Shown here: one piece after another, positions 5,557 through 28,783 of the stretch | Position numbering within the stretch: position 1 is the first letter of the stretch | Layout: each line of letters starts with the position of its first letter | NCBI GenBank assembly: GCA_947492185.1 | Contig: CANLMR010000011.1 | Span: 12,002 to 76,001 of the forward strand | Reading direction: 5' to 3' | Length of the DNA stretch: 64,000 bases | DNA from: an uncultured Tenacibaculum sp. | Lineage (GTDB): Bacteria > Bacteroidota > Bacteroidia > Flavobacteriales > Flavobacteriaceae | Program-made: the position numbers and the translations under genes | Notes under the pieces: generated by a model | The model's input: the letters and a program-made list of their open reading frames with translations, nothing else | The model's database searches: none | Told to the model about the DNA's origin: nothing

Positions 5557-7146
5557 TTATTCAAATTCACTTGTGTTGTGAAGTTTTACCGTAGGATATT
5601 TACTTTGAGTCATTTGAATAGTAAAAGGAGAGTCGGCTAAGAATACTAATTGTCCTTGTTTATCTTTAGCTAGGTAACGTTGTTTTACTCTTTTGAATTC
5701 TTTGAATTCTTCATTTTTTTCATCTTCTGGTTCAACCCAACAAGCTTTATGAACAGCAATATTTTCATAAGTACATTTAGCACCATATTCATGCTCTAAA
5801 CGATATTGAATTACCTCATACTGAAGTGCACCTACAGTACCAATAATTCTTCTTCCGTTCAAGTCTAAGGTAAATAACTGAGCAACACCTTCATCCATTA
5901 ACTGATCTAATCCTTTATATAGTTGTTTTGCTTTTAAAGGATCAGCATTGTTTACATAACGGAAATGTTCTGGTGAGAAACTCGGTATTCCTTTAAAGTT
6001 TAACTTCTCTCCTTCAGTTAATGTATCACCAATTTTAAAATTACCTGTATCATGCAAACCAACAATATCTCCTGCAAAGGACTCTTCAACAATTTCTTTT
6101 TTCTCTGCAAAAAAAGCATTAGGACTAGAGAATTTTACTTTTTTATTATTTCGTACATGTAAATATGGAGTATTTCTTTTGAAGGTTCCAGAAACAATTT
6201 TCACAAAGGCCAAACGATCCCTGTGTTTTGGATCCATATTTGCATGGATTTTAAAAACAAACCCAGTGAGCTTTTCTTCTTTGGAATCAACTAAACGTGA
6301 GTCCGACATTTTAGGTTGTGGATTCGGAGCAATATCAATAAAACAATCTAATAATTCTTTTACTCCAAAATTATTTAAAGCAGAACCAAAAAATACAGGC
6401 TGTAATTGTCCTTCTTCATATTCATCTTTATTGAACTCAGGGTAAACCTCATAAACTAATTCTAATTCTTCTCTAAGTGTATTTGCAGCATCTTCACCAA
6501 CTAAATTATCTAATTCAGGATTATTTACATCATCAAATTCTACACCTTCAGAAATAGTTTGTTTGTTATCTCCAGAGAAAACATTTATTTTCTTTCCCCA
6601 GATATTATAGATACCTTTAAAATCATATCCCATTCCTATAGGGAAACTTAATGGAGTAACACGTAAACCTAATTTTTGCTCAACTTCATCTAATAAATCA
6701 AAAGCGTCTTTTCCTTCACGATCTAATTTGTTAATAAACACAATCATTGGAATATTACGCATTCTACAAACCTGAACTAGTTTTTCAGTTTGTTCCTCAA
6801 CTCCTTTTGCAACATCAATAACTACAATTACACTATCAACTGCAGTTAATGTTCTAAAAGTATCTTCAGCAAAATCCTTATGACCAGGAGTGTCAAGAAT
6901 ATTAATTTTTTTATCTCTATAATTAAAAGCCAATACAGAAGTTGCTACTGAGATACCACGTTGGCGTTCGATCTCCATAAAATCGGAAGTAGCACCTTTT
7001 TTAATCTTATTACTTTTTACTGCACCAGCTTCCTGAATTGCACCACCAAATAAAAGTAATTTCTCGGTTAATGTTGTTTTACCCGCATCAGGGTGAGATA
7101 TAATTCCGAACGTTCTTCTTTTCTGTATTTCTTCTAAAAAACTCAT
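5557..7146 (-). CDS. prfC: Peptide chain release factor 3
   Basis: RRTFGIISHPDAGKTTLTEKLLL, DTPGHKDF, NKLD, GAVGxLQ-like GTVGALQYEV. Confidence 0.97.
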   Translation of the reverse strand: MSFLEEIQKRRTFGIISHPDAGKTTLTEKLLLFGGAIQEAGAVKSNKIKKGATSDFMEIERQRGISVATSVLAFNYRDKKINILDTPGHKDFAEDTFRTLTAVDSVIVVIDVAKGVEEQTEKLVQVCRMRNIPMIVFINKLDREGKDAFDLLDEVEQKLGLRVTPLSFPIGMGYDFKGIYNIWGKKINVFSGDNKQTISEGVEFDDVNNPELDNLVGEDAANTLREELELVYEVYPEFNKDEYEEGQLQPVFFGSALNNFGVKELLDCFIDIAPNPQPKMSDSRLVDSKEEKLTGFVFKIHANMDPKHRDRLAFVKIVSGTFKRNTPYLHVRNNKKVKFSSPNAFFAEKKEIVEESFAGDIVGLHDTGNFKIGDTLTEGEKLNFKGIPSFSPEHFRYVNNADPLKAKQLYKGLDQLMDEGVAQLFTLDLNGRRIIGTVGALQYEVIQYRLEHEYGAKCTYENIAVHKACWVEPEDEKNEEFKEFKRVKQRYLAKDKQGQLVFLADSPFTIQMTQSKYPTVKLHNTSEFE

Positions 7147-21182: not shown

Positions 21183-21740
21183 ATGAGATCAACTAAGCAA
21201 TTACATCATAAGCTCATTAAAGAGTGTAAGAATCAAAATGCAAAGGCGCAAATGCAATTGTATAAAACTTATGCAAAAGGAATGCTTTTGGTGGCAAATA
21301 GATATATGAAAGATATTCATTTGGCAGAAGATGTAATGCAAGATGCTTTTATTAAGGCTTTTAAAAATATTGAGAGTTATAAAGAAGAAGTCTCATTTGG
21401 TGCTTGGTTGAAGAGAATAGTAATTAACCAAAGTATTGATGAGTTAAAGAAAAATAAACTGGCTATGGTATCTATTAACGATGAAGTTTTAAATGTTGTT
21501 GATGATGGAAATTGGGAAGTTAATGATGAAGTGACATCAGAAATGGTTATCAATACGATTAACAAACAAAAAGACAAGTATAGATTAGTATTGACTTTGT
21601 ATTTAATTGAGGGATACGATCATAGTGAAATATCTCAAATATTAGGAATAACAGAAGTTACTTCTAGAACTCACTTAATGAGAGGAAAGAAATTAGTTAA
21701 AGAACAATTAAAAATGACGAATCATGCCGAAGGATATTAG
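21183..21740 (+). CDS. ECF sigma factor
   Basis: AEDVMQDAFIKAF, FGAWLKRIVINQSID, YLIEGYDHSEI. Confidence 0.93.
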   Translation: MRSTKQLHHKLIKECKNQNAKAQMQLYKTYAKGMLLVANRYMKDIHLAEDVMQDAFIKAFKNIESYKEEVSFGAWLKRIVINQSIDELKKNKLAMVSINDEVLNVVDDGNWEVNDEVTSEMVINTINKQKDKYRLVLTLYLIEGYDHSEISQILGITEVTSRTHLMRGKKLVKEQLKMTNHAEGY

Positions 21741-22281
21741 AAATTTAGCAAAAGATTTTCAACATCAATCAGTTGAGTTATCTGATAATCATGAAGATAA
21801 ATTCTTGAAAAAACTTCAAGAAGAGATGCCTAGTAAAAAGAAATCCTACAGATGGATTTATGTGGCTGCATCTATAATCATATTGTTAAGTTTTGGAATT
21901 AAGTTTTATCCAGATATTAATTCTGTTGATCCAAATCCAAAAAAGAATACTATAGAACAAGTAGTGAATTTAGGTGATATATCACCAGAAATGCAAAAAA
22001 TAGAAAATTACTACCTAACCGCTATTAATTATGAAATAGCTAGTTTAGAAGTTACTCCAGAAAATAAGGCCTTATTAGATGAGTATTTTGAGAGGATAAG
22101 TAAGTTAGATGCAGATTACAAACGTTTAAACCAAAAGCTTAAAAAAGAAGGTGTAAACAACGAAACAATCAATGCATTAATTACCAATCTTCAATTACGT
22201 TTACAATTATTAATTCAGTTAAAAGATCAAGTTATTGATCTACAATCAAAAAAGAATAAAAATGAGAGTTTTACCATATAA
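21724..22281 (+). CDS. Putative anti-sigma factor
   Basis: HEDKFLKKL, single TM, LGDISPEMQKIENYY, NLQLRL; overlaps the sigma gene. Confidence 0.7.
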   Translation: MPKDIRNLAKDFQHQSVELSDNHEDKFLKKLQEEMPSKKKSYRWIYVAASIIILLSFGIKFYPDINSVDPNPKKNTIEQVVNLGDISPEMQKIENYYLTAINYEIASLEVTPENKALLDEYFERISKLDADYKRLNQKLKKEGVNNETINALITNLQLRLQLLIQLKDQVIDLQSKKNKNESFTI

Positions 22282-23236
22282 ATTAGTGATATTGTCGATC
22301 TTTTCTTTAGTTCAATTATGCGCTCAAAAGAGGGATTTTAAAGAAGAGTTTAATGTGAAATCTGATGTTGTTATAGATATTAATACACGACACTCAGATA
22401 TAGAGATAGAAACATGGAATAAAGATAAAGTTGTTGTAGAAGCCTTTATGATTGTAGATGGAGAAGAAGTTACAGAAGAAATGCGTGACAAATTCTATAA
22501 AAAATGGGATTTTGATGCTTACGGAAATAGTTCAAAAGTTACTGTAAAGTCAAGAACTAATTCATCTATTATAGATATTAATACATTTAATTTCGATACA
22601 CCAAATTATAATTATTTTAATGGAGACTTAATAGATCTTTCGTTAGGAAGTTTAGATATACTAGATTCAATTGATTTTTCAGGAATAAATGATTTTGTAA
22701 TAATTCCAGAAATTGAATTGCCTGCACTTCCAGAAATGCCCCCATTACCACCGTTACCACCGTTACCAAGTGAGTTTGATTTTGACGAATACAAAAAGGA
22801 TAAAAATTATTTAAATCGTTGGAAGGAGAAAAACAAAAATGTAATTGGTAAAAATGCTGAGGTAACTATAGGTAAAAATTCAATTTCTATTAAAACAGAT
22901 GATGATACTGATATTACTATGTTAAAGGAAAAAGAGAAGTATCAAAAAGAAATAGAAAAGGCAAGAGAGTTATATAATACAGAACGTTTAAAAGCAAGAG
23001 AAGCATATAAGAAAGCTAGAAAAATTCACAAGGAAAAAAGAAAGAAAGATTTGCGTAAGAAAAAAGAAGATTATAGAGAATTAATCAAAAAATATTCAAA
23101 AGATCGAAAAGAAATTCAAAGTCTATTGAAAAAAAGAAGTAAGTTAAAAATTAAAAGATTGATAAAAATTAAAGCGCCAAAAGATGCCAAATTTAACATG
23201 AATGTTAAGTATGGAGCTTTAAGTTTTTCAAAATAA
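22262..23236 (+). CDS. Secreted hypothetical protein (DUF4097/adhesin-like N-terminus, Pro-rich linker, charged coil)
   Basis: Signal peptide (LCAQ); IEIETWNKDKV; LPALPEMPPLPPLPPLP. Confidence 0.65.
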   Translation: MRVLPYKLVILSIFSLVQLCAQKRDFKEEFNVKSDVVIDINTRHSDIEIETWNKDKVVVEAFMIVDGEEVTEEMRDKFYKKWDFDAYGNSSKVTVKSRTNSSIIDINTFNFDTPNYNYFNGDLIDLSLGSLDILDSIDFSGINDFVIIPEIELPALPEMPPLPPLPPLPSEFDFDEYKKDKNYLNRWKEKNKNVIGKNAEVTIGKNSISIKTDDDTDITMLKEKEKYQKEIEKARELYNTERLKAREAYKKARKIHKEKRKKDLRKKKEDYRELIKKYSKDRKEIQSLLKKRSKLKIKRLIKIKAPKDAKFNMNVKYGALSFSK

Positions 23237-25470: not shown

Positions 25471-26325
25471 ATGAATTTTTTAGCAATTACATGGGATTGG
25501 AATCCTGAAATTTTTAACATTGGCGGATTTAGTATCCGTTGGTATAGTTTAATGTTTATCATTGCTTTTATTTTAGGGTTGCAACTAATGAAGAAAATTT
25601 ATACAGAGGATAAGATATCTCTTGAAAAAATGGATCCTTTGTTTATGTATACGTTTGTTTCCATGTTAATTGGAATGCGATTAGGGGAAGTTTTCTTTTA
25701 TAGCTGGGCAGATTATCAAAATAACCTACTTCAAATTATTTTACCTTTTAGAAAGCAAGAAGGAGCAGAAATGTTATTCGGTTTAGTTAAAGGATGGAAA
25801 TTTACTGGTATTTCCGGGTTTGCTAGTCATGGAGCAGCAATTGCAATTCCAATAGCTTTATACTTTTATGCAAAAAAGCATTTACAAAAATCATGGTTAT
25901 TTATTCTTGATAGAATGGGGATTATGGTTGCTTTAGCTGGATTCTTCATTAGAATGGGAAATTTCTTTAATTCTGAAATTTATGGAAAGCCAACAGGTTC
26001 AAGTTTTGGAGTAATATTTAAAAGAGCAGGAGAAAAAGTTCCATGTCATCCAACTCAGATATATGAAGCTTTTAGTTATCTAGTATTGTTTTTTATTTTA
26101 TGGAGATTATATTGGAAAACTGATAAGAAGCAAAAAGAAGGATATTTATTCGGAGTCTTTATGATTGCACTTTGGTCTCTACGATTTGTAATTGAGTTTA
26201 TAAAGAAACCACAAGTACACGAAAGGGGAGAGTGGGCTTTAAACACAGGACAATGGTTAAGTATTCCTTTAGTGTTAATTGGAGTTTGGCTGGTGTTGAG
26301 AAAAACTAAAGCTAAGACAGAATAA
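25471..26325 (+). CDS. lgt: Prolipoprotein diacylglyceryl transferase
   Basis: IRWYS, GMRLG, FASHG, RMGNFFNSEIYG, HPTQIYE. Confidence 0.96.
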   Translation: MNFLAITWDWNPEIFNIGGFSIRWYSLMFIIAFILGLQLMKKIYTEDKISLEKMDPLFMYTFVSMLIGMRLGEVFFYSWADYQNNLLQIILPFRKQEGAEMLFGLVKGWKFTGISGFASHGAAIAIPIALYFYAKKHLQKSWLFILDRMGIMVALAGFFIRMGNFFNSEIYGKPTGSSFGVIFKRAGEKVPCHPTQIYEAFSYLVLFFILWRLYWKTDKKQKEGYLFGVFMIALWSLRFVIEFIKKPQVHERGEWALNTGQWLSIPLVLIGVWLVLRKTKAKTE

Positions 26326-26374
26326 TCGTTTTAAAATAAATTCTGAATAAAATATTCTAGTTCTATTTCTTTAG

Positions 26375-26473
26375 GAACTTCCAATTTTTTACGAATTCTA
26401 TAGCGTAGTTTACATTGTTCGATTAGAAGTTGATGGAAAAGTAATTAATAAGAAAGTAATATTTGAAAAGTAA
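26375..26473 (+). pseudogene. Remnant resembling the end of a T9SS C-terminal sorting domain
   Basis: In-frame ELPIFYEFYSVVYIVRLEVDGKVINKKVIFEK*, no start codon, TAG at 26372. Confidence 0.55.
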
Positions 26474-26481
26474 TTAAGATA

Positions 26482-26592
26482 CTGTCATTGCGAATGTAGA
26501 GAAGCGTAATGAAGCAACTTTTTATTTTCTGAACTAAATTCAAAATAAAGAAAATAAGATTACTTCGTCGTTATCACTCATCGCAATGACGG
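26482..26592. repeat. REP-like inverted doublet (CGTC-type, REPIN/MITE-like)
   Basis: GTCATTGCGA (26484-26493) and TCGCAATGAC (26581-26590), plus imperfect inner arms gaagcaactttttattttct / agaaaataagattacttc. Confidence 0.75.
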
Positions 26593-26610
26593 ATTTAATT
26601 CATAATAAAA

Positions 26611-26784
26611 ATGAAGAAATTAAATCAAATCAAAAACAAAGAAACGATCACCAGAAAAGAAGCATTACAAAAAATAGGTGATTATGGAAAATATTCAGTA
26701 TTAACAGCTTTAGGAACTTACTTAATTTTAAACCCTAAAAAGGCACAAGCTGCTTCCCCAGAAGCACCTGGAGATGGGTTTTAA
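26611..26784 (+). CDS. 57-aa secreted micro-peptide precursor (not in ORF track)
   Basis: MKKLNQIKNKETITRKEALQKIGDYGKYSVLTALGTYLILNPKKAQAASPEAPGDGF; own terminator 5 nt after the stop. Confidence 0.8.
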   Translation: MKKLNQIKNKETITRKEALQKIGDYGKYSVLTALGTYLILNPKKAQAASPEAPGDGF

Positions 26785-26789
26785 ATTTT

Positions 26790-26820
26790 AAAAGGAGTAA
26801 CATTTTGTTACTCCTTTTTT
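26790..26820 (+). terminator. Intrinsic terminator of the micro-peptide gene
   Basis: aaaaggagtaaca-ttt-tgttactcctttt plus T-run. Confidence 0.8.
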
Positions 26821-26920
26821 AGTACGTTATTTTTTGTTAATTTTCAATTTAGAATTTCATTAGCATTATTGAAATTGTAGATAACCTAAACTAATTACTA
26901 ACTTACTAAAACACAGATCT

Positions 26921-28783
26921 ATGAAAAAATATATTTTCTTCATGATCTTTTTGGGAATTACCAATTTTAGTTTTACCCAAAACAAAATAGAATCATTACA
27001 AAAAAAATTAAATAAAGTATCTGAAGTAAAAGATCAGATAGCGATTTTAGATACTTTAACTACCGAAATGGTTAGGAATAATCATCCTGAGCAGAATAAA
27101 TTCCTAAATAAAATAGTTTTATTGTCTAAAGAAAATGACAATTATGATTTAGCAGCTGAAAAATCTCGATTTATCATACAAGCCTACACAAATAAAGGAC
27201 AATTAGATTCCGCATTGTATGTAATAGAATCAATGTTAAAAGGAAAACCAAAATTTAAAAAGAAAAGTTCAGAAGCTCATTTATTACTAAAAAGAGCATC
27301 TTATTATTACAATAATGAAAAGCTTGATAAAGCTGTTCAAGATTATGATGTTTCAGCAAATTTATTTTTAGAAAGTAAAGATTCAATATTTGCTGCTGAT
27401 GCTAGGTTTTTTGCGGGTCAGGCGTATTTCGATATCAATGATTTTTTAAAGAGTGTCAAGCGTTTTGAAGAAGCATATTTTTTATACGATACTTTAGGAG
27501 ATAAAGATTATGCAAATTATGCACTTAATGAATTGTCGAGTTTGTATGGAAAAAATGGTTTTCATGATAAAGCAATTTATGAAAGAAAAAGAATTTTACA
27601 AGATGCGAAATCATCAAATAACTGGCATGGTATATTTTACGCTTATTCTCATTTATTTACTTCTTTTTATAAAAAGAATCAGATAGGAATAGCTAAGAAA
27701 TATTTGGACTCTATGGTTATTTCCCAAAATAAGATAGAAAACGAAAGAGGAAAAAGAGAATCAGAATTACATGTGTCTAAAATGTTTACTAAATATTATT
27801 TGAAAACTAATAATTTAGATAGCGCATCCATCTATTTAAAAGAGTTTGAAAACAAACTGAAAATTGGAAGTAATAGTGCTAAATATAATAGAAATGCATT
27901 TCTGTTATATAGTGCAAGGTTTGCAAAACAGAAAAAGAATTATATAGAATCTCAAAGGTTTTACGAACAGTTATTAGATAAAAACAATAGGGTAGGAGAC
28001 CTACAAATGTTGATAAATGCTAATAAAGAAATCTCTGAAGTACTTGCTGCTCAAAACAAATTTGGAGAATCATATAAGTACTTGAAAAATTTTTCAGATT
28101 TAAAAGAACCTGAAGATTCAAGAATTAAGACGAATACATTTTTGTATTATCAATCTGAGTTTGAAACTCAAAGAAAAGATGCTGAAATTTTTAAAAAGAA
28201 AACGCAAATAACATTACTTGAAAAAGATAGGACGATTTTAGAAACTAATAGAAATCTTTTAAGGGTAGTTTTATTATCAGTTATTTTGCTTTCTATTGTT
28301 ATTGGTTATTTTATTTGGTTAAAAGGAAAATTAAAACGTAAAGCATTAGCTAAAAAACTTGAAAAAAACAAACAAGAACTTAAAGAGTTTACACAACAGC
28401 TTTTAGAGAAAAGTAAAGTTCAAGAGTCGTTAACAAAAGAGTTAGAAAAGTTAAAAGAAGAAATAGGAGAGCAAAAATCCATAGAAAAAATTCATGACTT
28501 AACTACGACTAGAATTTTAACTCCAGATGATTGGTATTTGTTTAAAGAAAAATTTAGCCAAGTCCATCCAACATTTTTTGTTCGATTAAAAAATAAAGGA
28601 TATAAACTTACCAAATCAGAAGAACGATTATTGGCTATGGAAAAGTTGTATTTAGATACAAAACAAATAGCAAGTATGTTAGCTATTTCTAATGATAGTG
28701 TAGTGAGAAGCCGTTCTCGCTTAAGAAAAAAAATTAATGCGCCTAAAGGAAGTTCTATACTTGAATACCTTGAGGCATCGTAA
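26921..28783 (+). CDS. One-component regulator: signal peptide, TPR-like helical sensor, TM helix, coiled coil, LuxR-like HTH
   Basis: TM LLRVVLLSVILLSIVIGYFIWL; ILTPDDWYLFKEKF; LTKSEERLLAMEKL..DTKQIASMLAIS..SV.RSRSRLRKK. Confidence 0.8.
   Translation: MKKYIFFMIFLGITNFSFTQNKIESLQKKLNKVSEVKDQIAILDTLTTEMVRNNHPEQNKFLNKIVLLSKENDNYDLAAEKSRFIIQAYTNKGQLDSALYVIESMLKGKPKFKKKSSEAHLLLKRASYYYNNEKLDKAVQDYDVSANLFLESKDSIFAADARFFAGQAYFDINDFLKSVKRFEEAYFLYDTLGDKDYANYALNELSSLYGKNGFHDKAIYERKRILQDAKSSNNWHGIFYAYSHLFTSFYKKNQIGIAKKYLDSMVISQNKIENERGKRESELHVSKMFTKYYLKTNNLDSASIYLKEFENKLKIGSNSAKYNRNAFLLYSARFAKQKKNYIESQRFYEQLLDKNNRVGDLQMLINANKEISEVLAAQNKFGESYKYLKNFSDLKEPEDSRIKTNTFLYYQSEFETQRKDAEIFKKKTQITLLEKDRTILETNRNLLRVVLLSVILLSIVIGYFIWLKGKLKRKALAKKLEKNKQELKEFTQQLLEKSKVQESLTKELEKLKEEIGEQKSIEKIHDLTTTRILTPDDWYLFKEKFSQVHPTFFVRLKNKGYKLTKSEERLLAMEKLYLDTKQIASMLAISNDSVVRSRSRLRKKINAPKGSSILEYLEAS

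What the first reader, a model, noticed from the sequence alone, without database searches (positions are those of the whole stretch)
26611..26784. Unannotated 57-aa precursor: Tat-like leader with only a 10-residue mature peptide
Seen: n-region ITRKEALQKIG (twin-arginine-like, RK variant), h-region YSVLTALGTYLIL, c-region NPKKAQA, leaving ASPEAPGDGF; dedicated strong terminator. A leader much longer than its cargo is the architecture of peptide signals or RiPP precursors, or of a membrane-retained accessory peptide. My recollection that similar ORFs follow large T9SS genes in Flavobacteria is unverified.
Basis: partly seen in the sequence, partly recalled or inferred. Interest (0 to 1): 0.7.

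Follow-up and report, generated by a model that had tools for sequence, protein, structure and literature searches.

The report
Small exported peptide riding T9SS cargo genes
The 57-codon ORF is a real, strongly conserved gene from a very large, unnamed family of small leader-bearing peptides that marine Flavobacteriaceae place right after genes for type IX-secreted proteins; in this window the secreted-protein gene has been deleted and only the peptide gene survives.

Summary
Window 26611..26784 (+) encodes MKKLNQIKNKETITRKEALQKIGDYGKYSVLTALGTYLILNPKKAQAASPEAPGDGF, followed by a strong terminator hairpin.

- **Real gene.** It has hundreds of close homologues and at least 6,900 clusters in the wider family, none with a Pfam or NCBIfam model. 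Codon-level purifying selection is clear.
- **Architecture.** About 46 N-terminal residues are conserved. The tail varies from 2 to 96 residues, with Ser at +2 after AQA in 98% of members.
- **Not a canonical Tat signal.** The leader looks Tat-like in outline, but the motif is R-K in 87%, RR in 2% and non-basic in 11%.
- **Not a membrane anchor.** The hydrophobic core is only 13 residues.
- **Context.** About 80 of 85 genomic copies lie 0-50 nt after a gene ending in a T9SS sorting domain (PF18962) and end the transcription unit.
- **This window.** Only a decayed relic of that domain (26336-26473) remains upstream, so this copy is an orphan.
- **Possible tailoring enzymes.** Often, at one locus in a genome, a family peptide sits about 100 nt upstream of a PqqD-like/HprK-type kinase plus a nucleotidyltransferase. 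That pair is known to phospho-glycosylate lasso-peptide precursors.

Best reading: an exported, possibly modified pre-peptide coupled to T9SS cargo. Its function is unproven.

The parts
26336..26473 (+). Decayed relic of the 3' end of a T9SS cargo gene (C-terminal sorting domain). The best-preserved part, 26396-26473, reads FYSVVYIVRLEVDGKVINKKVIFEK*. Further upstream it carries in-frame stops.
   Evidence: tblastn of 81 sorting-domain tails against the window gave best E = 8e-6, with 20-44 residues aligned and stops within 26336-26395. The DNA alignment with L001, L002, L006, L009, L012 and L047 agrees.
26484..26590 (+). Palindromic spacer between the relic's stop and the peptide's ATG. The outer arms are GTCATTGCGA and TCGCAATGAC. 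It folds into a long hairpin.
   Evidence: Energy is -37.6 kcal/mol with z = -5.3. Only L001 and L002 share it, with a compensatory G:C to A:T change in the outer stem. There is no Rfam match above threshold.
26611..26751 (+). Leader or signal part of the ORF (residues 1-47). It comprises a variable K/N/E-rich N-terminus, then the conserved I-T-R-K-E-A-L-x-K-I-G, the 13-residue hydrophobic core YSVLTALGTYLIL, and N-P-K-K-A-Q-A.
   Evidence: Translation; invariant and near-invariant columns; codon-position test; AlphaFold2 predicts a single helix over residues 15-40; hydrophobicity.
26752..26784 (+). Predicted mature tail ASPEAPGDGF (residues 48-57) plus the TAA stop. Ser49 is invariant across the family.
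   Evidence: ASPEAPGDGF is the commonest tail (54 of 120 close homologues). Ser is at +2 in 348 of 355 family members. Cleavage after AQA is inferred from the -3/-1 rule, not shown.
26790..26820 (+). Intrinsic-terminator-like hairpin: 13-bp stem, 3-nt loop, U run.
   Evidence: Energy is -16.8 kcal/mol with z = -6.6. 66 of 90 family copies have a hairpin of -10 kcal/mol or stronger within 60 nt of their stop.
26921..28783 (+). Neighbouring gene, context only: a 620-aa regulator with a signal peptide, TPR repeats, a TM segment and a LuxR-type HTH.
   Evidence: Pfam gives TPR_12 at E = 1e-6 and GerE at E = 2e-3, both below the gathering score. Orthologues (66% identity) in L035 and L066 sit directly after lgt with no peptide between. 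Related regulators flank cassettes in 13 of 73 loci.

Best explanation
The ORF is a functional-looking member of a very large, undescribed family of small pre-peptides in marine Flavobacteriaceae (Tenacibaculum, Polaribacter, Winogradskyella and many uncultured lineages).

**Shown**
- It is a protein-coding gene under strong purifying selection.
- The family has a conserved leader of about 46 residues and a variable tail.
- The gene is normally the last cistron of an operon whose preceding gene encodes a T9SS-secreted protein. Sorting-domain end, peptide gene and terminator together form a recurring 3' module.
- In this window the cargo gene has been deleted. A pseudogenised sorting-domain relic remains, while the peptide ORF stays intact.
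- Often, at one locus in a genome, a family peptide lies about 100 nt upstream of a cytoplasmic kinase with a PqqD-like N-terminus and an HprK/PEPCK-type C-terminus. A PF14907 nucleotidyltransferase follows that kinase.

**Inferred**
1. The peptide is translated together with its cargo.
2. Its long, weakly hydrophobic leader with a basic c-region acts as a post-translational export signal. The leader may also be the recognition element for the PqqD-like domain.
3. The kinase and nucleotidyltransferase pair may modify a conserved Ser or Thr in the cytoplasm. Candidates are the invariant Ser at +2 or the T/S before the invariant Arg.
4. The leader is removed after A-Q-A.
5. A short Pro/Gly-rich peptide with an aromatic C-terminus (here ASPEAPGDGF) is released into the periplasm or beyond.

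The peptide's role is tied to T9SS cargo, but what that role is remains unknown.
For: - **Real gene:** homologues and codon-position pattern.
- **Leader conserved, tail variable:** tail length 2-96 residues, including Cys-rich and SKPSL-repeat tails.
- **Signal-like, not anchor-like:** 13-residue hydrophobic core, P at -6, A-x-A, KK in the c-region.
- **T9SS coupling:**
  - About 80 of 85 copies lie 0-50 nt after a large same-strand gene ending in a sorting domain.
  - 10 of 10 tested upstream genes pass Pfam's gathering score for PF18962.
  - Distant members follow the same arrangement, with gaps as short as 2 nt.
- **Last cistron:** terminator hairpins follow 66 of 90 copies.
- **Transcription:** metatranscriptome contigs run from the cargo's 3' end into the peptide ORF. 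Depth falls to zero in all four runs between the peptide and the kinase.
- **Orphan status:** sorting-domain relic. Orthologous loci L035 and L066 have lgt followed directly by the regulator, with no insert.
- **Kinase:**
  - TIGR04352-like C-terminal half, and PF14907 in the next gene.
  - Weak but repeated PqqD hits at the N-terminus.
  - One orthologue is named 'PqqD family protein' by a source.
  - The AlphaFold2 model (pLDDT 89.8) has beta-beta-beta-alpha-alpha-alpha topology at residues 4-78 and a PEPCK/HprK fold after that.
- **Reciprocal test:** of 67 kinase loci with enough upstream sequence, 41 have a family peptide ending 55-154 nt upstream on the same strand, and 7 more within 1-3 kb. 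A kinase only 28% identical, in Winogradskyella with different flanks, keeps the adjacency.
- **Precedent:** an HprK-like kinase and a nucleotidyltransferase phosphorylate and then glycosylate a Ser of lasso-peptide precursors (PMC8498205).
Against: - No cleavage, export or modification has been observed. No peptidomics or expression data exist for this organism.
- The kinase adjacency may be partly synteny.
  - In many genomes the kinase is fixed between trkH and mpl, and cargo-peptide cassettes come and go in front of it.
  - 19 of 67 kinase loci have no peptide nearby.
  - A terminator separates peptide and kinase.
- The characterised HprK-like peptide kinases act on a C-terminal Ser. These peptides end in F, W, D or K.
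- No leader peptidase or dedicated transporter is seen in the loci.
- In the Tenacibaculum/Polaribacter clade the tail is nearly invariant, unlike a typical hypervariable RiPP core.
- Q at -2 and S at +2 are invariant, which signal peptidase I does not require.
- The window copy has no recognisable promoter of its own and may be silent.
Confidence: 0.5

Rival explanations
1. Uncleaved small membrane protein. The hydrophobic helix anchors the 57-aa protein in the inner membrane, N-terminus in and tail out. There it acts as an accessory factor for export or secretion of the adjacent T9SS cargo, for example by contacting the Sec, GldLM or sorting-domain machinery.
For: - The helix region is far more conserved than ordinary signal peptides. 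G, T and Y positions are invariant, suggesting specific helix-helix contacts.
- AlphaFold2 gives one continuous helix over residues 15-40.
- There is tight genetic coupling to cargo genes.
Against: - The uncharged core is only 13 residues. The position-independent Hessa sum is about +1 kcal/mol for the 13-mer and +8.7 for any 19-residue window.
- A textbook P(-6)...A-x-A site follows the core.
- Tails range from 2 to 96 residues and include Cys-rich modules typical of exported passengers.
Confidence: 0.2
2. Genuine Tat substrate. The leader is a true twin-arginine signal (RK variant), and the peptide is exported by TatABC.
For: - The n-region is long.
- T-R-K-E-A-L-K-K resembles S/T-R-R-x-F-L-K.
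- The h-region is weakly hydrophobic.
- The c-region carries basic residues.
- There is an A-x-A site.
- A few family members do have RR.
Against: - The position after the invariant Arg is K in 87%, R in only 2%, and N/G/E/I/T/Q/S/A in 11%.
- No match to Tat-signal models in NCBIfam or Pfam at E <= 1.
- Whether these genomes have a Tat system was not checked.
Confidence: 0.12
3. For this window only: the copy is a silent leftover of a deleted cargo operon, still intact simply because it is short and the deletion is recent.
For: - The cargo gene is gone and its sorting-domain relic carries stops.
- There is no TAnnTTTG-type promoter motif in the 286 nt upstream.
- Related genomes lack any insert at this site.
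Against: - All family-invariant residues are intact, and the substitutions present (S29, V30, D24) are seen in other members. The adjacent relic has decayed.
- Read-through from lgt could transcribe it, since no terminator was found between them.
- Its own terminator is intact.
Confidence: 0.3
4. Double-glycine-type bacteriocin precursor. The leader would be cleaved near K-I-G-(N/D)-Y-G by a C39-peptidase ABC transporter, releasing a hydrophobic peptide of about 33 residues.
For: The N-terminus (MKKLNQIKNKETITRKEALQKIG) loosely resembles Bacteroidetes GG leaders. This is my own recollection of TIGR04149 and TIGR01847.
Against: - No NCBIfam hit to those models.
- The register is off by one and there is no GG pair.
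- No C39/ABC transporter gene recurs in the 73 loci.
- The putative 'core' is the most conserved part, unlike bacteriocins.
Confidence: 0.03

Closest known systems
Phospho-(glyco)sylated lasso-peptide precursors (paeninodin, pseudomycoidin): HprK-like kinase K plus nucleotidyltransferase N
   Same: Small ribosomal peptides with a leader sit next to an HprK-family kinase and a nucleotidyltransferase. A PqqD-type recognition domain is present; here it is fused to the kinase (PMC8498205).
   Different: - No lasso cyclase or B2 protease in the loci.
- The peptides do not end in Ser.
- The leader carries a secretion-signal-like hydrophobic core.
- There are many precursor genes per genome, each attached to a T9SS cargo gene.
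- The kinase scores 69 bits against TIGR04352, whose cut-off is 200.
Twin-arginine (Tat) signal peptides
   Same: Long n-region; a T-R-K-x-A-L-K-K motif directly before a weakly hydrophobic h-region; basic c-region; A-x-A site.
   Different: The twin arginine is not conserved (RK 87%, RR 2%, non-basic 11%). No Tat profile match. The passenger is 2-96 residues and mostly disordered.
Multi-precursor families with a conserved leader and variable core (prochlorosin-type RiPPs; conotoxin-like signal-sequence superfamilies). Comparison from general knowledge.
   Same: Many paralogues per genome (at least 5-7). The N-terminal part is far more conserved than the C-terminal part across the family. One candidate tailoring locus was seen in each genome where it was found.
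   Different: The precursors are not free-standing or clustered. They are the last cistron of T9SS cargo operons. Within Tenacibaculum/Polaribacter the tail is nearly constant.
T9SS type-A C-terminal sorting domain cargo (PF18962 / TIGR04183)
   Same: Genetically inseparable in most copies. The sorting-domain end, the peptide and the terminator behave as one 3' module, and they look homogenised within a genome (L032).
   Different: The peptide itself has no sorting domain and is not a known T9SS component. Only a subset of sorting-domain genes carry it: 80 with against 35 without in the fetched loci.

Membership tests
Tat signal peptide | Conserved twin-arginine in S/T-R-R-x-F-L-K | tested here: not met
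   After the invariant Arg: K in 325, R in 7 and non-basic in 43 of 375 family sequences.
Tat signal peptide | Match to Tat-signal profiles (NCBIfam TIGR01409, Pfam TAT_signal) | tested here: not met
   No family hit at E <= 1 in NCBIfam or Pfam.
Tat signal peptide | Weakly hydrophobic h-region, basic c-region, A-x-A site | tested here: met
   13-residue core with mean Kyte-Doolittle hydropathy about 1.0-1.6, then NPKKAQA.
Tat signal peptide | Export depends on TatABC | not testable with these tools
   Needs genetics in a Tenacibaculum strain.
Sec-type cleavable signal peptide (signal peptidase I) | n-h-c organisation with small residues at -3 and -1 | tested here: met
   A45-Q46-A47 with P42 at -6. 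A-Q-A is near-universal in the family, with some E/D/V/I at -1. The 27-residue n-region is atypically long.
RiPP precursor with RRE-dependent tailoring | Conserved leader, variable core | tested here: met
   The leader is invariant or near-invariant, while tails are 2-96 residues of varied composition. Within the close clade the tail is conserved.
RiPP precursor with RRE-dependent tailoring | Adjacent gene for an enzyme carrying a PqqD-like recognition element | tested here: inconclusive
   - Not present in this window.
- Elsewhere, 41 of 67 kinase loci have a family peptide 55-154 nt upstream.
- PqqD Pfam hits are sub-threshold, E = 0.01-0.1.
- The AlphaFold2 topology fits.
- One orthologue is named 'PqqD family protein'.
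RiPP precursor with RRE-dependent tailoring | Leader peptidase and/or dedicated exporter in the cluster | tested here: not met
   No recurrent peptidase or ABC transporter family among 894 neighbouring ORFs.
RiPP precursor with RRE-dependent tailoring | Demonstrated post-translational modification | not testable with these tools
   Needs mass spectrometry.
Lasso peptide system | Asn-synthetase-like cyclase (C) and B2 protease next to the precursor | tested here: not met
   The 'home' locus reads trkA-trkH-collar-cargo-peptide-cargo-kinase-NTase-mpl, with no C or B2.
HprK-related kinase A system (TIGR04352) | Kinase reaches the model's cut-off | tested here: not met
   59.8-68.9 bits against a cut-off of 200. 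It is a relative, not an equivalog.
Double-glycine leader bacteriocin (Bacteroidetes GG family) | GG cleavage motif and C39-peptidase ABC transporter | tested here: not met
   No GG pair in register, no NCBIfam hit, no transporter family in the loci.
T9SS cargo | C-terminal sorting domain (PF18962 / TIGR04183) on the protein itself | tested here: not met
   No Pfam or NCBIfam hit for the 57-aa protein. The domain is on the upstream gene.

The most novel reading that the evidence does not exclude
The family is a previously unrecognised partner system of type IX secretion. Each cargo operon would co-express a small exported peptide, possibly phospho-glycosylated on its invariant Ser by the PqqD-like/HprK kinase and nucleotidyltransferase.

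Two roles are conceivable after leader removal:
- The peptide's free N-terminus acts as the acceptor in the PorU sortase-like transpeptidation that removes the sorting domain, so that it tags or anchors the cargo.
- The peptide is a secretion-coupled signal read by the periplasmic TPR domains of the TPR/TM/LuxR regulators that often flank these cassettes.

Either would be a new component of T9SS biology and a new class of modified peptide.
Probability: 0.15. Interest if true: 0.85.

Novelty: new variant of a known kind. Interest (0 to 1): 0.62.

Why it matters
T9SS is the main protein-secretion and gliding-motility route of Bacteroidota, including fish pathogens and the main marine polysaccharide degraders.

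- **A blind spot in annotation.** A family of thousands of small genes physically welded to the 3' end of T9SS cargo genes has no Pfam or NCBIfam model and did not appear in the literature searched.
- **A possible missing substrate.** It may supply the substrate for an orphan pairing of a PqqD-like/HprK-type kinase with a nucleotidyltransferase.
- **Directly testable.** The predicted product is a defined 10-mer, ASPEAPGDGF, whose presence and mass shifts can be sought by mass spectrometry in culturable Tenacibaculum or Polaribacter.
- **For this window.** It shows how a cargo operon decays. The sorting-domain relic is pseudogenised while the peptide gene stays intact.

Tried and rejected
- **Other copies in the window:** none (tblastn).
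- **Pfam and NCBIfam for the peptide:** no hit at E <= 1.
- **Rfam for 26200-27000:** only sub-threshold terminator-like matches.
- **Consensus terminator scan:** missed the hairpin. Folding showed it.
- **RNA or DNA sequencing runs:**
  - None were listed for the window or for Polaribacter Hel1_85.
  - Marine metatranscriptome contigs for a related metagenome locus were usable, but they are contigs, not reads.
- **Structure prediction of the kinase from locus-derived sequences:** It was repeated with database orthologues.
- **PDB sequence search with the kinase profile:** only weak HprK P-loop matches, and nothing for the N-terminal domain.
- **The 90-aa ORF next to the nucleotidyltransferase in L075:** not PqqD-like and probably spurious.
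- **Tail motif inside the cargo proteins (mimicry idea):** absent from 894 neighbouring ORFs.
- **Palindromic spacer as a dispersed repeat:** found only at this position in the window, L001 and L002.
- **Literature:** nothing on this peptide family, on TIGR04352, or on PF14907 in this context.
- **Non-coding or spurious ORF:** rejected by the codon-position pattern.
- **GG-leader bacteriocin:** rejected (see rivals).

Full report
**1. The observation**

Window 26611..26784 (+) is an ATG-to-TAA ORF of 57 codons. It translates to MKKLNQIKNKETITRKEALQKIGDYGKYSVLTALGTYLILNPKKAQAASPEAPGDGF. An in-frame TAA at 26596-26598 fixes the start.

Six bases after the stop, a 13-bp stem with a 3-nt loop runs into a U tract (26790-26820). 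Its energy is -16.8 kcal/mol, and none of 200 shuffles folds as well.

**2. It is a real gene**

A search of 5.8 billion proteins returned 643 homologues. The best 120 are all 51-74 aa, at E down to 1e-22. They come from Tenacibaculum, Polaribacter and uncultured relatives, and all are called 'hypothetical protein'.

From residue 13 onward they are almost invariant, including the C-terminal decapeptide. The first ~10 residues vary.

On 83 distinct DNA copies, the non-consensus fraction by codon position is 0.118 / 0.037 / 0.366. Synonymous codon differences outnumber non-synonymous ones 63,333 to 23,231. Ser49 uses both TCN and AGY, and Arg15 uses both CGN and AGA. That pattern marks selection on a protein, not a DNA or RNA element.

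No Pfam or NCBIfam model matches, and no paper was found on the family.

**3. The wider family shows the architecture**

A profile search of 1.84 billion cluster representatives found 296 representatives. These include Winogradskyella and many uncultured marine Flavobacteriaceae.

Conserved across all of them is the pattern I-[TS]-R-K-[ED]-A-[LI]-K-K-[IM]-G-K-Y-A-A-L-T-A-x-G-T-[FY]-x-I-L-N-P-K-K-A-Q-A-x-S. The Tenacibaculum/Polaribacter clade carries a three-residue insert (N-Y-G).

After A-Q-A, the tail ranges from 2 to 96 residues:
- Many are Pro/Gly-rich and end in GGF, GGW, GWD or NPFD.
- Some have SKPSL repeats.
- Some are Cys-rich modules of 60-80 residues.

Ser at +2 is present in 348 of 355 members.

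So the N-terminal ~46 residues behave as a family-specific leader carrying diverse passengers.

**4. What kind of leader**

In outline it resembles a Tat signal:
- a long n-region;
- T-R-K-E-A-L-K-K directly before the h-region;
- a weakly hydrophobic 13-residue core;
- a KK-containing c-region;
- an A-x-A site.

The defining twin arginine is not maintained. After the invariant Arg the residue is K in 87%, R in 2% and non-basic in 11%. No Tat profile matches. I therefore do not file it as a Tat signal.

It is also unlikely to be a stable membrane anchor. The uncharged core is 13 residues, and any 19-residue window sums to about +8.7 kcal/mol on the position-independent Hessa scale.

AlphaFold2 predicts one helix (residues 15-40) and a disordered tail, at modest confidence.

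Q at -2 and S at +2 are invariant, which signal peptidase I does not require. Something else probably also reads this segment.

**5. Genomic context: the strongest result**

In 73 genome loci carrying about 85 copies, roughly 80 copies lie 0-50 nt downstream, on the same strand, of a gene of 200 to more than 3,300 codons. A subset has a 120-141 nt gap. The upstream product ends in ...G(V/I)Y(I/V)VKL...KKI(I/V)LE.

Ten of ten tested upstream proteins pass Pfam's gathering score for PF18962 Por_Secre_tail at their extreme C-terminus. Their passenger domains differ (LTD, CBM_4_9, Big_3, DUF642).

Distant members show the same arrangement, with gaps as short as 2 nt.

Further features of the arrangement:
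- Tandem [cargo + peptide] cassettes about 3.2 kb apart are common.
- Sorting-domain end and peptide look homogenised within a genome. In L032 the two peptides are identical and the two sorting domains nearly so.
- Only a subset of sorting-domain genes carry the peptide: 80 with against 35 without in these loci.
- A strong hairpin follows the stop in 66 of 90 copies. Mean energy is -14.7 kcal/mol, against -5.3 for shuffles. The peptide is therefore normally the last cistron.
- Genomes carry at least 5-7 copies.

For a related metagenome locus (L096), metatranscriptome contigs run from the cargo's 3' end into the peptide ORF (one contig spans 4390-5790; the peptide is at 5717-5884). Depth is zero in all four runs at 5857-5977, just after the peptide. 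These are assembled contigs of a multi-copy sequence, so this is supportive rather than decisive.

**6. This window's copy is an orphan**

Here the upstream gene is lgt, 286 nt away.

The gap holds two features:
- **A sorting-domain relic.** 26396-26473 still reads FYSVVYIVRLEVDGKVINKKVIFEK*. Similarity extends back to about 26336 but is broken by stops.
- **A palindromic spacer.** It occupies 26484-26590, with energy -37.6 kcal/mol and z = -5.3. Only the giant-cargo cassettes of L001 and L002 share it, with a compensatory change in the outer stem.

Two related genomes (L035, L066) keep the same sigma / anti-sigma / cysS / lgt / 620-aa regulator synteny, but lgt and the regulator are only about 135 nt apart, with nothing between them.

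So a cargo-peptide cassette entered this intergenic site in the window's lineage. The cargo gene was later deleted up to lgt's stop.

The peptide ORF retains every family-invariant residue while the relic has decayed. This hints that it is still useful. However, no Bacteroidetes-type TAnnTTTG promoter motif lies upstream, so any expression would need read-through from lgt.

**7. A candidate tailoring pair**

In 13 of the genome loci, each from a different genome, a 376-aa protein and then a 351-aa protein follow a family peptide. In some of them a second cargo gene lies between.

The 376-aa protein has two parts:
- **C-terminal half.** It matches HprK-related kinase A (TIGR04352) at E = 4e-19, below the family cut-off.
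- **N-terminal ~80 residues.**
  - They give repeated sub-threshold PqqD hits in the same register.
  - A high-confidence AlphaFold2 model (pLDDT 89.8) shows three strands then three helices, the arrangement of PqqD-type peptide-recognition elements.
  - A PEPCK/HprK-fold kinase follows in that model.
  - One orthologue is named 'PqqD family protein' by a source.

The 351-aa protein is a PF14907 nucleotidyltransferase.

Neither protein begins with an obvious signal sequence, judged by eye from the translations. No signal-peptide predictor was run.

The reciprocal test started from the kinase in metagenome contigs:
- 41 of 67 loci with at least 450 nt upstream have a family peptide ending 55-154 nt upstream on the same strand.
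- 7 more have one 1-3 kb upstream.
- 19 have none. In most of these the kinase follows trkH directly; in two (L091, L131) it follows a sorting-domain gene.

A Winogradskyella kinase only 28% identical, with different flanking genes, keeps the peptide-kinase-nucleotidyltransferase order.

There is a precedent. In lasso-peptide clusters an HprK homologue phosphorylates a Ser of the precursor, and a nucleotidyltransferase adds hexoses to that phosphate (PMC8498205).

The caveats are real:
- There is no cyclase or protease here.
- These peptides do not end in Ser.
- A terminator separates peptide and kinase.
- Part of the adjacency may be a conserved insertion hot-spot between trkH and mpl.

**8. 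Most likely mechanism**

*Shown:* the gene, the family architecture, the T9SS coupling, the last-cistron position, the orphan status here, and the frequent adjacency of a family member to the kinase and nucleotidyltransferase pair.

*Inferred:*
1. Co-translation with the cargo.
2. Recognition of the leader in the cytoplasm.
3. Possible Ser/Thr modification.
4. Post-translational export.
5. Cleavage after A-Q-A.
6. Release of a ~10-residue Pro/Gly-rich peptide whose role relates to T9SS cargo.

Two speculative roles are an acceptor for the sortase-like removal of the sorting domain, or a ligand for the periplasmic TPR domains of regulators that flank 13 of 73 cassettes and this one. Both are untested.

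**9. Comparison and novelty**

It works most like a leader-bearing exported or RiPP-like precursor. It fails the membership tests for Tat signals, lasso systems, GG-leader bacteriocins and T9SS cargo.

The coupling of a conserved small pre-peptide to the 3' end of T9SS cargo genes was not found in the literature searched here. I rate it a new variant of a known kind. There is a modest chance that it is a new element of T9SS biology.

**Scores**
- Interest: 0.62.
- Confidence that the ORF is a real member of a T9SS-coupled family: about 0.95.
- Confidence in the full mechanistic reading: about 0.5.

Noticed in passing
window 26484-26590: A long palindromic spacer lies between the sorting-domain relic and the peptide ATG. 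Energy is -37.6 kcal/mol, z = -5.3. It is shared only with the giant-cargo cassettes L001:9882-9981 and L002:9870-9981, with a compensatory G:C to A:T change in the outer stem. It could be an RNA processing or stability element, or an inserted miniature element.
   Followed up: partly
window 26336-26473: A pseudogenised 3' end of a T9SS cargo gene abuts the lgt stop. It records the deletion of a probably very large cargo gene. Its subtype matches the 2,000-3,200-aa proteins of L001, L002 and L006.
   Followed up: yes
window 26921-28783; L035:12380-14242; L066:12404-14263: The 620-aa signal/TPR/TM/LuxR-HTH regulator is conserved next to lgt in related genomes. Related 524-561-aa regulators flank cargo-peptide cassettes in 13 of 73 loci, either divergently upstream of the cargo or directly after the peptide. 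They may control these operons or sense something periplasmic.
   Followed up: partly
proteins P0131, P0177, P0184, P0196: Some database entries fuse the family's C-terminal half to unrelated N-termini: a GldN-like fragment, a sorting domain read through its stop (KKVIIQ-INPTKDNN...), and a Fib_succ_major-like fragment. These may be recombination products, frameshifts or assembly chimeras.
   Followed up: no
proteins P0192, P0211, P0212, P0228, P0234; P0273, P0306, P0322, P0327: Two subfamilies keep the same leader but have very different tails. One has Cys-rich modules of 60-80 residues ending in K-rich tails. The other has (S/L)SKPSL repeat tails.
   Followed up: no
L096:5736-5856: In one marine metatranscriptome (X3) the contig depth over the peptide ORF is 259-603, against 0-3 over the upstream cargo gene. 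This could be summed signal from many paralogues or a stable 3' RNA fragment. Contig depth is a poor measure.
   Followed up: no
L163:2161-3594; L003:5697-6353 and 16 other loci: One or two ~220-aa secreted proteins with a phage-tail Collar domain (PF07484) precede the cargo-peptide cassettes at the trkH-to-mpl 'home' locus. In L074-L076 and L078 a YadA_head/Peptidase_S74 protein precedes the cargo.
   Followed up: no
L091 and L131 (upstream of the kinase): Here a sorting-domain cargo gene is followed directly by the kinase, with no peptide gene between. The peptide is therefore not obligatory at that position.
   Followed up: no
window 21183-23236: An ECF-type sigma factor (185 aa), a putative anti-sigma protein (185 aa) and a 333-aa Pro/Lys-rich protein lie upstream of cysS. 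They are conserved in the same order in L035 and L066.
   Followed up: no
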